Positions 11,100-11,175 of a stretch of 64,000 nt of DNA are shown one piece after another (position 1 is the first letter of the stretch; the number at the start of each line of letters is the position of its first letter). The stretch lies in the sequence record OM632664.1. One strand, written 5' to 3'. A program made the position numbers and the translations under genes. The stretch is from Escherichia phage BEU5. Below the pieces are notes generated by a model that was given only the letters and a program-made list of their open reading frames with translations, was not told where the DNA came from and made no database searches.

Positions 11100-11175
11100 T
11101 TAGTGAACACACTATGGAACCTCCCAGCTTCCTCCAGATGTACGGCAATACATTAGCTGGTAGTGTGTTCACTGA
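11100..11175 (+). other. long perfect hairpin (14-bp stem, 46-nt loop) just 3' of tRNA-Thr
   Basis: TAGTGAACACACTA at 11101-11114 is the reverse complement of TAGTGTGTTCACTA at 11161-11174. Confidence 0.5.

What the first reader, a model, noticed from the sequence alone, without database searches (positions are those of the whole stretch)
11100..11175. 14-bp perfect inverted repeat enclosing 46 nt immediately after tRNA-Thr
A perfect 14-bp stem of this length is unlikely by chance. It starts 11 nt after the tRNA-Thr CCA end, and a sibling element of the same design follows tRNA-Pro. Candidates: a co-transcribed stable small RNA (as in the T4 tRNA cluster), an RNase III-type processing site, or a miniature inverted-repeat insertion.
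Basis: seen in the sequence. Interest (0 to 1): 0.55.

Follow-up and report, generated by a model that had tools for sequence, protein, structure and literature searches.

The report
Conserved hairpin RNA after phage tRNA-Thr
The repeat is real: it forms a long RNA hairpin in the tRNA operon of a coliphage N4 relative, its stem has been kept paired during evolution while its loop changes freely, and it most likely acts as a processing or spacer hairpin, though this is untested.

Summary
The window is an N4-type coliphage (100% identical to phage BEU13, 99% to N4).

**Observation.** The inverted repeat exists, but the perfect Watson-Crick part is 13 bp (11102-11114 / 11161-11173), not 14. As RNA the helix runs 11091-11184. 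That is 24 bp with three G-U pairs and one G-G mismatch, and it starts 2 nt after the tRNA-Thr CCA. The window holds only two 13-bp perfect repeats, both in this tRNA array.

**Family.** Element A belongs to a hairpin family in other N4-like phages:
- Over 17 aligned stem pairs, 96.5% of cells pair.
- Seven pairs show changes on both sides.
- The loops are unrelated.

The hairpin after tRNA-Pro is a paralogue, and phage Pollock keeps it right after tRNA-Leu.

**Exclusions.** Element A has no Rfam match. It is not a tRNA, a terminator or a dispersed mobile element, and it is not similar to T4 rnaC or rnaD.

**Best reading (confidence 0.4).** It is a co-transcribed hairpin module whose stem is an RNase III-type processing stalk or insulating spacer.

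**Rivals.** A stable trans-acting or decoy RNA; a neutral exchangeable module.

**Context.** The surrounding about 1.15-kb array is a mosaic of stem-closed RNA modules shared with many unrelated phages.

The parts
10797..10826 (+). Putative sigma-70-like promoter of the RNA array (TTGTAA, 18-nt spacer, TATAAC)
   Evidence: Read directly from the sequence. The core GAGCAGATAAGTTTKTAGTATAA is shared with the start of the homologous array in IMG/VR contig L053. The strict consensus scan did not call it, so this is an inference.
11014..11089 (+). tRNA-Thr (UGU), with CCA at 11087-11089. It is the third of three tightly packed tRNAs: Asn 10840-10914 and Ser 10920-11009.
   Evidence: ARAGORN. Rfam tRNA model, 75 bits.
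11091..11114 (+). Element A, 5' arm of the 24-bp terminal helix. The perfect core is 11102-11114.
   Evidence: the repeat finder pair I2, RNA fold, exact-repeat scan.
11115..11160 (+). Element A interior (46 nt). Predicted inner helices are 11124-11129/11155-11160 and 11137-11142/11149-11154, with apical loop CGGCAA. CCUCC occurs twice, at 11120-11124 and 11131-11135.
   Evidence: MFE and centroid structure. The interior is unrelated in sequence to the interiors of homologous hairpins in other phages.
11161..11184 (+). Element A, 3' arm. This is the part most conserved with Gamaleyavirus (TAGTGT..TGATAGGTTGT).
   Evidence: The match of window 11161-11200 to pSb-1, U1G, PW8, ZQ2 and AN24P2 is 82-88%.
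11173..11190 (+). Small alternative hairpin UGAUAG-GUUGUA-CUAUCA. It overlaps the base of the 3' arm and could form only if the 5' arm is removed.
   Evidence: Read directly from the sequence. The same arrangement is a 9-bp hairpin in pSb-1. KP8 has a separate, non-overlapping hairpin GAUGG-UGAG-CCAUC at the same place.
11521..11604 (+). Sibling hairpin (I5). It has a 13-bp perfect stem starting 2 nt after the CCA of tRNA-Pro (11442-11518) and is a paralogue of element A.
   Evidence: Its stem UAGUGCUCUG/CAGAGCACUA nearly matches the upper stem of the BaqKoxi member GAGUGCUCUG/CAGAGCACUC. It is conserved in phage Pollock directly after tRNA-Leu CCA+AA, with one C-to-U change that keeps a G-U pair.
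11321..11433 (+). Third long-stem module (I1). It has 27-nt arms enclosing a T-arm-like hairpin and begins at the CCA of the tRNA-like element 11257-11322.
   Evidence: z = -8.1. Homologues occur in Klebsiella and Salmonella N4-like phages and in T4-like Yersinia phages TG1 and phiR1-RT.
11965..11994 (+). Intrinsic terminator that ends the RNA array
   Evidence: Terminator scan: 12-bp stem followed by a T-run. It is annotated as a terminator in phages AL25 and Jura.

Best explanation
Element A (11091-11184) is an RNA-level hairpin module of the phage N4 tRNA operon.

**How I think it works**
- It is transcribed on the + strand as part of one untranslated precursor of about 1.15 kb. That precursor holds four tRNAs, a tRNA-like RNA and several other stem-closed RNAs, each separated by 0-8 nt.
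- Selection acts on its roughly 20-24-bp terminal helix, not on the enclosed sequence.
- I infer that the helix is a processing stalk and folding insulator. A double-strand-specific cut, most likely by host RNase III, would sever tRNA-Thr from the downstream RNAs.
- That cut would leave a short 3' trailer on tRNA-Thr for exonucleolytic trimming back to CCA.
- It would also free the 3' arm remnant to refold into the small hairpin 11173-11190, which would cap the 5' end of the next RNA.
- The roughly 46-nt top of the hairpin would be a by-product, possibly a stable one.

**Shown:** the helix, its rarity, its strand bias, its conservation by compensatory change, its position next to CCA ends, and its paralogue.

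**Inferred:** transcription, the identity of the nuclease, and the fate of the fragments.
For: - **Helix.** 24 bp, -41 kcal/mol, z = -5.9. The + strand folds better than the - strand.
- **Strand bias.** Three G-U pairs would be C-A mismatches on the other strand. The polymorphic pair is U-G here and U-A in N4.
- **Rarity.** The only two 13-bp perfect repeats in 64 kb lie in this array. So do the two longest helices.
- **Homologous hairpins.** They occur in Gamaleyavirus, Kaypoctavirus, BaqKoxi and three IMG/VR contigs.
- **Covariation.** Over 17 aligned stem pairs, 96.5% of cells pair and 7 pairs change on both sides (12 cells). Sliding the partner by 1-3 columns gives only 0-1 such pairs, and 0 of 500 shuffles reach the observed values.
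- **Loops.** They are unrelated in sequence and range from 34 to 65 nt.
- **Position.** Long-stem hairpins start 0-4 nt after a CCA end:
  - element A after tRNA-Thr, I5 after tRNA-Pro and I1 after the tRNA-like element;
  - KP8, BaqKoxi and L104 family members after a tRNA plus ACAU;
  - the Pollock I5 after tRNA-Leu.
- **Transcription unit.** It is bounded by a terminator and has a conserved promoter-like box. It has no ORF above 61 aa.
- **Enzyme fit.** RNase III accommodates about 22 bp of dsRNA, makes staggered double cuts in intramolecular stems, and has sites in intergenic regions near tRNAs (PMC6212723).
- **From my own knowledge, not checked here.** RNase III takes part in T4 tRNA-cluster processing (Pragai and Apirion, 1981). 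It also excises rRNA flanking stalks and intervening sequences.
Against: - There are no expression or cleavage data for N4.
- RNase III sequence preferences were not scored.
- The sibling I5 has only a 13-bp closing stem. That is too short for RNase III unless it stacks on an inner helix.
- Related long-stem hairpins occur in phage and prophage arrays that contain no tRNAs (DS8 and lambdoid prophages). tRNA 3'-end release therefore cannot be the general role.
- Loops differ wholesale between close relatives, not by drift. This could mean that the loop is a selected, diversifying functional part.
- The I5 interior is conserved between N4 and Pollock. That suggests more than a spacer, at least for the sibling.
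Confidence: 0.4

Rival explanations
1. Element A is a stable, trans-acting small RNA. The conserved stem is a nuclease-resistant scaffold that hides both ends. The variable interior is the working part, for example a decoy or an antisense or anti-Shine-Dalgarno sequence aimed at a host factor or defence system.
For: - The pattern is a conserved stem with wholesale-different loops among close relatives.
- CCUCC occurs twice in or beside predicted unpaired bulges.
- The module is one of several stem-closed RNAs exchanged individually between unrelated phages.
- The array sits next to anti-defence-type genes, with a Tad2-like domain protein downstream.
- From my own knowledge, T4 species 1 and 2 RNAs set a precedent for stable RNAs in phage tRNA clusters.
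Against: - No target was identified.
- The interior is not conserved outside the near-identical N4 group, so there is no comparative support for any loop motif.
- The Gamaleyavirus interior carries GGAGG, not CCUCC.
- No Rfam family matches.
Confidence: 0.25
2. Element A is a selectively near-neutral, exchangeable stem-bounded module, like the intervening sequences of rRNA genes. It persists because a self-contained hairpin is harmless between RNA genes, and it spreads by recombination at its conserved arms.
For: - Modules are gained and lost as precise stem-bounded units. The X module 11612-11722 is absent from Pollock between the same flanks.
- The family member sits at different places in U1G and PBM-3, with the breakpoint exactly at the end of the arm (GATAG).
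- Loops are swapped between otherwise near-identical flanks.
Against: - Seven compensatory stem pairs indicate continuing selection on pairing.
- Copies are confined to RNA arrays, with none elsewhere in 64 kb.
- There is no target-site duplication.
- The element is retained in all 14 N4-type genomes found.
Confidence: 0.15
3. The hairpin positions a nuclease other than RNase III. RNase P would recognise the helix as an acceptor-stem mimic, or RNase E or RNase BN would cut in the 1-2 nt between the CCA and the helix. Either way it would define the tRNA-Thr 3' end directly.
For: - The helix starts 2 nt after the CCA. The same design recurs three times in the window and again in relatives.
- From my own knowledge, RNase P cleaves long hairpin precursors such as 4.5S RNA and P1 C4 RNA.
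Against: - No RCCA follows the 3' arm; the sequence there is CUAUCAC.
- There is no T-arm in element A.
- The single-stranded gap of 1-2 nt is very short for RNase E.
Confidence: 0.12
4. It is a DNA-level element, such as a cruciform or hairpin used as a promoter, origin or recombination site.
For: From my own knowledge, N4 is known to use DNA hairpins as promoters for its virion RNA polymerase.
Against: - Those promoters have 5-7-bp stems and 3-nt loops and lie in the early region. This element has a 24-bp stem and a 46-nt loop inside an RNA operon.
- The G-U pairs and the better fold are specific to the transcribed strand.
- As DNA the arms are only 83% complementary.
Confidence: 0.03

Closest known systems
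Phage T4 stable RNAs species 1 and 2 (rnaC, rnaD)
   Same: They are non-tRNA structured RNAs encoded on the tRNA strand inside a phage tRNA cluster and co-transcribed with the tRNAs. Their function is still unknown (my own knowledge).
   Different: There is no sequence similarity to element A. The predicted folds are branched, with short closing stems and, in rnaC, a T-arm. They are not a single long hairpin.
RNase III processing stalks: helices flanking 16S and 23S rRNA, rRNA intervening sequences, T7 R-sites, the lambda N leader
   Same: These are intramolecular helices of about two turns that bracket or separate functional RNAs in a polycistronic precursor. The helix is conserved and the enclosed or apical sequence is free to vary. 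Intervening sequences are likewise sporadic, stem-bounded and exchangeable.
   Different: Cleavage has not been shown here. The element lies in a phage tRNA operon. It has no sequence relationship to any of these.
tRNA-spacer-derived small RNAs of E. coli (for example 3'ETS-leuZ)
   Same: These RNAs are released from a tRNA operon precursor next to a tRNA 3' end (my own knowledge).
   Different: Those are short, largely single-stranded Hfq-dependent sponges ending in a terminator. Element A is a long, closed hairpin with no terminator.
Correia, ERIC and other miniature inverted-repeat elements
   Same: They are about 100 nt long with terminal inverted repeats. They fold as hairpins when transcribed, and Correia elements are cut by RNase III (my own knowledge).
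   Different: Those occur in tens to hundreds of dispersed copies with target-site duplications. Here there are two paralogues, both inside one RNA operon, with no duplication.
Bacterial Y RNAs (YrlA)
   Same: A long stem is formed by the 5' and 3' ends around a variable region. Some are phage-encoded (PMC4201824).
   Different: Element A gives no YrlA hit, and the only weak YrlA hits lie on tRNA T-arms. Element A has no tRNA-like domain. E. coli K-12 has no Ro orthologue (my own knowledge).

Membership tests
T4-type stable RNAs of phage tRNA clusters (rnaC/rnaD) | Encoded within a phage tRNA gene cluster, on the same strand as the tRNAs | tested here: met
   The element lies between tRNA-Thr and tRNA-Pro on the + strand. 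The T4 layout is shown.
T4-type stable RNAs of phage tRNA clusters (rnaC/rnaD) | Sequence or structure homology to rnaC or rnaD | tested here: not met
   blastn-short finds only chance 7-8-mers. The folds differ.
T4-type stable RNAs of phage tRNA clusters (rnaC/rnaD) | Accumulates as a discrete stable RNA in infected cells | not testable with these tools
   No N4 small-RNA data were found in the literature searches.
RNase III processing stalk | Intramolecular double helix of about 22 bp | tested here: met
   24 bp with one mismatch and three G-U pairs, including 19 uninterrupted pairs. The size requirement comes from PMC6212723.
RNase III processing stalk | Helix maintained by selection (compensatory substitutions) | tested here: met
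   7 of 17 pairs change on both sides, 96.5% of cells pair, and slid controls give 0-1 such pairs.
RNase III processing stalk | rnc-dependent staggered double cleavage that leaves 2-nt 3' overhangs | not testable with these tools
   This needs in vitro cleavage or RNA-end mapping in wild-type and rnc hosts.
RNase III processing stalk | Base-pair preferences around the cut (proximal, medial and distal boxes; a G-C pair between the cuts) | not tested
   The position-specific matrix is in a figure of PMC6212723 that was not available as text.
Miniature inverted-repeat transposable element (Correia/ERIC-like) | Multiple dispersed copies in the genome | tested here: not met
   The only comparable repeats in 64 kb lie within 11091-11604.
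Miniature inverted-repeat transposable element (Correia/ERIC-like) | Target-site duplication flanking the terminal repeats | tested here: not met
   The flanks are ...CCAA | element | CTATCAC..., with no direct repeat.
Miniature inverted-repeat transposable element (Correia/ERIC-like) | Clean occupied and empty sites among close relatives | tested here: inconclusive
   All 14 N4-type genomes carry the element. More distant relatives show module-level shuffling with breakpoints at the ends of the arms, but no simple empty site.
tRNA / tRNA-like RNA / Y RNA-like (Rfam RF00005, RF02553) | Cloverleaf, or at least a T-arm plus acceptor stem with a 3' CCA | tested here: not met
   ARAGORN and Rfam give no hit over 11090-11185 even at E = 10. 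No T-loop motif is present in the interior.
Intrinsic terminator | G+C-rich hairpin followed by a U-run | tested here: not met
   The only + strand terminator inside the array is 11965-11994. CUAUCACAG follows element A.
N4 virion-RNA-polymerase hairpin promoter | DNA hairpin with a 5-7-bp stem and a 3-nt loop in the early region (my own knowledge) | tested here: not met
   The stem is 24 bp and the loop 46 nt. The element lies in the tRNA operon next to the gp48 and gp49 homologues.

The most novel reading that the evidence does not exclude
Element A is one cassette of a previously undescribed, horizontally exchanged toolkit of stem-closed RNA modules used by many enterobacterial phages.

- The hairpins would combine a conserved scaffold stem with a hypervariable loop. 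They would act as programmable decoys or guides in phage-host conflict, not as passive spacers.
- Relatives add a widespread roughly 60-nt two-hairpin motif. This motif is also found at the head of the early-left operon of lambdoid prophages.
- Some relatives also add a tmRNA-like tag-coding module (ANDDVVLMAA).
Probability: 0.15. Interest if true: 0.8.

Novelty: new variant of a known kind. Interest (0 to 1): 0.5.

Why it matters
- **Annotation.** N4 is a classic model phage, yet its 1.15-kb tRNA region is annotated only for three or four tRNAs. This work shows that the gaps hold conserved, structured RNAs. Element A is a clean example, with a stem kept paired by compensatory evolution.
- **If it is a processing stalk.** It would explain how a tightly packed precursor mixing tRNAs and non-tRNA RNAs is cut apart where RNase P has no site.
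- **If the loop is functional.** The family would be a conserved scaffold that presents fast-evolving sequences, next to anti-defence genes.
- **Wider use.** It gives a concrete, testable entry point into the long-unexplained non-tRNA RNAs of phage tRNA clusters. It also links them to RNA modules shared with temperate phages.

Tried and rejected
- **Rfam.** The permissive scan (E up to 10) of 10600-12100 and of six related loci found only tRNAs and chance hits.
- **IMG/VR pattern scan.** A scan for the junction of the 3' arm with the downstream sequence returned only the pSb-1 genome. Homologues had to come from GenBank phage records and from a second scan on the neighbouring 60-nt motif.
- **Literature.** Searches for N4 small RNAs, N4 transcriptomes, phage tRNA-cluster hairpins and the tag peptide found nothing on this element.
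- **T4 rnaC and rnaD.** No similarity.
- **HK022 put antiterminator RNAs.** Compared with the adjacent 60-nt motif; no similarity.
- **tmRNA-like tag module.** It is present in relatives but absent from this window.
- **E. coli genome annotation.** The homologous prophage region carries no annotated feature.
- **Phage Jura.** Its extra 127 nt is a tandem duplication upstream of the promoter and is not relevant.
- **Coding potential.** Only unconserved ORFs of 31-34 aa overlap the element.
- **Other explanations.** Terminator, DNA-hairpin promoter and dispersed mobile element were rejected; see the membership tests.

Full report
**Identity of the window**

The 1.3 kb around the finding is 100% identical to Escherichia phages BEU13, BEU42, BEU44 and BEU51. 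It is 99% identical to coliphage N4 (EF056009, 32311-33612), genus Enquatrovirus. ARAGORN finds four + strand tRNAs, and Rfam agrees:

| tRNA | Coordinates |
|---|---|
| Asn | 10840-10914 |
| Ser | 10920-11009 |
| Thr | 11014-11089 |
| Pro | 11442-11518 |

In N4 the region lies between gp47 and gp48 and carries no annotation.

**Check of the observation**

- The exact Watson-Crick inverted repeat is 13 bp (11102-11114 / 11161-11173) around 46 nt. There is no 14-bp exact repeat.
- The next pairs outward are U11101-G11174 and U11100-A11175. In N4 itself 11174 is A, so the wobble pair becomes U-A.
- The repeat finder extends the arms to 11091-11114 / 11161-11184, 24 nt and 83% complementary. As RNA that is 24 bp with three G-U pairs and one G-G mismatch. 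The helix begins 2 nt after the CCA of tRNA-Thr.
- The 96-nt RNA folds at -41 kcal/mol (z = -5.9, 0 of 200 shuffles). Its complement reaches only -34.2 kcal/mol.
- The window holds exactly two 13-bp perfect repeats with loops of 120 nt or less. These are this one and 11521-11533 / 11592-11604 after tRNA-Pro. Markov simulations give a mean of 0.18.
- The two longest uninterrupted G-U-tolerant helices in 64 kb (19 bp each) are this element and 11329-11347 / 11407-11425.

"Perfect 14 bp" and "11 nt after the CCA" are slightly off.

**Context**

- The tRNAs and hairpins form one compact untranslated unit.
- A promoter-like TTGTAA-18-TATAAC lies at 10797-10826. Its core is shared with a homologous array in an IMG/VR contig. 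The strict scan does not call it.
- A strong terminator lies at 11965-11994.
- No ORF exceeds 61 aa.
- Modules are 0-8 nt apart.
- Three long-stem hairpins each begin 0-2 nt after a CCA end:
  - element A after tRNA-Thr;
  - I1 (11321-11433) after a D-armless tRNA-like RNA at 11257-11322, which is annotated tRNA-Undet in phage AL25;
  - I5 (11521-11604) after tRNA-Pro.

**Relatives**

Element A as a whole is found only in the 14 N4-type genomes, at 98-100% identity. Its 3' arm and downstream flank match Gamaleyaviruses at 82-88%. Reading those loci shows a hairpin at the same place. It has its own complementary 5' arm and an unrelated interior of about 65 nt.

Further members turned up in KP8, PBM-3, BaqKoxi, ECBP1 and three IMG/VR contigs. 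All fold as long hairpins with 34-65-nt interiors that share little or no sequence.

An ungapped alignment of 17 stem pairs from 10 distinct members gave these results:

- 96.5% of cells pair.
- 7 pairs change on both sides (12 cells).
- Sliding the partner by 1-3 columns gives 0-1 such pairs.
- 0 of 500 shuffles reach the observed values.

Between N4 and the Gamaleyavirus consensus alone there are four double changes: A-U to G-C, G-C to A-U, U-A to C-G, and, in N4 proper, C-G to U-A. A U-U mismatch present in 6 of 10 members is closed as U-A or A-U in the others.

Caveats: I extracted the arms by anchoring on the conserved ends, the sequences are related by descent, and the shuffle count is not a probability.

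A recurrent U-G pair, and C-to-U changes that leave G-U pairs, make sense only for + strand RNA.

**The sibling**

- The I5 stem (UAGUGCUCUG / CAGAGCACUA) nearly matches the upper stem of the BaqKoxi member (GAGUGCUCUG / CAGAGCACUC). I5 is therefore a paralogue.
- In phage Pollock, from a different subfamily, I5 follows tRNA-Leu CCA+AA. One C-to-U change there keeps a G-U pair, and the interior is largely conserved.

**What it is not**

- It gives no Rfam match at E up to 10.
- It is not a tRNA.
- It is not a terminator.
- It shows no similarity to T4 rnaC or rnaD, whose folds differ.
- It is not a dispersed element and has no target-site duplication.
- It does not fit the short DNA-hairpin promoters of N4 (my own knowledge).

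**Mechanism**

The data show a transcribed-strand helix under selection, placed directly after tRNA 3' ends, with a freely varying top.

The simplest reading is a processing stalk and folding insulator in a precursor where RNase P cannot separate a tRNA from a non-tRNA neighbour. The helix has the roughly 22-bp length that RNase III accommodates. RNase III sites near tRNAs are known in E. coli (PMC6212723). From my own knowledge, RNase III also acts in T4 tRNA-cluster processing, on rRNA stalks and intervening sequences, on the lambda N leader and on DicF.

After a cut, the 3' arm remnant could refold into UGAUAG-GUUGUA-CUAUCA (11173-11190). This hairpin is 9 bp in pSb-1 and is a separate hairpin in KP8. 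It would cap the next RNA.

Points against:
- The I5 closing stem is only 13 bp.
- Similar hairpins occur in arrays that contain no tRNAs.
- Loops are replaced wholesale.
- The I5 interior is conserved.

I put this model at 0.4. The rivals are listed separately: a stable trans-acting or decoy RNA at 0.25, a near-neutral exchangeable module at 0.15, another nuclease at 0.12, and a DNA-level element at 0.03.

**Wider picture**

The N4 array is a mosaic of stem-closed modules, each shared with different phages.

- **The 60-nt motif.** The roughly 60-nt motif just downstream of element A (11192-11250) occurs in more than 120 IMG/VR stretches. Its two helices covary clearly across 62 distinct sequences. 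In lambdoid prophages it lies in a noncoding leader of about 930 nt between the cI-type repressor gene and rdgC.
- **The tmRNA-like tag.** Several relatives, but not N4, carry a tmRNA-like tag frame.

These findings raise the interest of the locus beyond the single hairpin. They do not yet explain it.

Noticed in passing
window 11192-11250: A conserved two-hairpin RNA motif of about 60 nt (AGYCCAGAC.ATATCTG.GTGRCT..AAAAACAGATGG.AGCNGGTGGAAKCCCNGC) lies directly downstream of element A.
- It occurs in more than 120 IMG/VR stretches. Hosts include N4-like phages, Kuravirus, Klebsiella siphophages, Shigella phage DS8 and lambdoid prophages.
- In the prophages it lies in a noncoding leader of about 930 nt between the cI-like repressor gene and rdgC.
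- Both helices covary, for example AGCC/GGCT 45 times and AGTC/GACT 14 times.
- It has no Rfam match, no annotation in E. coli genomes, and no similarity to HK022 put.
   Followed up: partly
L010 882-918; L013 1093-1128; L014 976-1010; L015 1110-1145; L053 about 6899-6934 (not in the window): Relatives carry a tmRNA-like tag frame with no start codon: AUAAAU GCA AAC GAU GAU GUU GUU CUG AUG GCN GCN UAA UA(A/G), which reads ANDDVVLMAA (ANDNVVLMAA in L053).
- The relatives are DS8, Gamaleyaviruses PBM-3 and ECBP1, KP8, BaqKoxi and IMG/VR contigs.
- The last two Ala codons vary only synonymously.
- ARAGORN calls no tmRNA, and Rfam tmRNA_permuted scores only 27 bits.
- The hairpin family member homologous to element A sits immediately 5' of this module.
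- The module is absent from the N4 window.
   Followed up: partly
window 11257-11322: A D-armless tRNA-like RNA. It has a 7-bp acceptor stem, a 10-bp arm capped by a UGCA tetraloop, a canonical T-arm and an ACCA end. Its sequence is about 95% conserved in Gamaleyaviruses. Some records annotate it as tRNA-Undet. ARAGORN and Rfam do not call it.
   Followed up: partly
window 11321-11433: Module I1 has a 27-nt-arm stem enclosing a conserved domain with a T-arm. Homologues occur in Klebsiella and Salmonella N4-like phages and in T4-like Yersinia phages TG1 and phiR1-RT. The outer stem sequences differ, and an inner helix shows a compensatory change (GAAGU/ACUUC to GGAGU/ACUCC).
   Followed up: partly
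window 11612-11722: Module X is closed by GUGGGAUG/CAUCCCAC. It is shared with Gamaleyaviruses and with unrelated large myoviruses of Enterobacter, Pectobacterium, Serratia and Cronobacter. It is precisely absent from phage Pollock between the same flanks.
   Followed up: no
window 11755-11960: The 3' modules carry TAGGGGTATGTTAGGG, which is repeated in DS8. They also have a long-range stem UUAGCAG...CUGCUAA around CAUAGUCCUGA...GACAGUCC. They are conserved in Gamaleyaviruses, KP8, BaqKoxi and L053.
   Followed up: no
window 12020-12876: The two genes just downstream of the RNA array encode a Phage_gp49_66 family protein (PF13876, E = 3e-34) and a protein with a Thoeris anti-defense 2-like domain (PF11195, E = 9e-24). 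The RNA array therefore borders an anti-defence-type gene.
   Followed up: partly
window 11120-11124 and 11131-11135: The anti-Shine-Dalgarno-like pentamer CCUCC occurs twice within 16 nt in or beside predicted unpaired bulges of element A. The Gamaleyavirus counterpart has GGAGG at this place.
   Followed up: no
window 10554-10597: A 17-bp G-U-tolerant helix, the third longest in the window, lies inside the small ORF 10524-10688 just upstream of the array.
   Followed up: no
L141 57-183 (phage Jura): Phage Jura carries a 127-nt tandem duplication of the end of the upstream ORF, its terminator-like hairpin and part of the promoter-upstream region of the tRNA array.
   Followed up: yes
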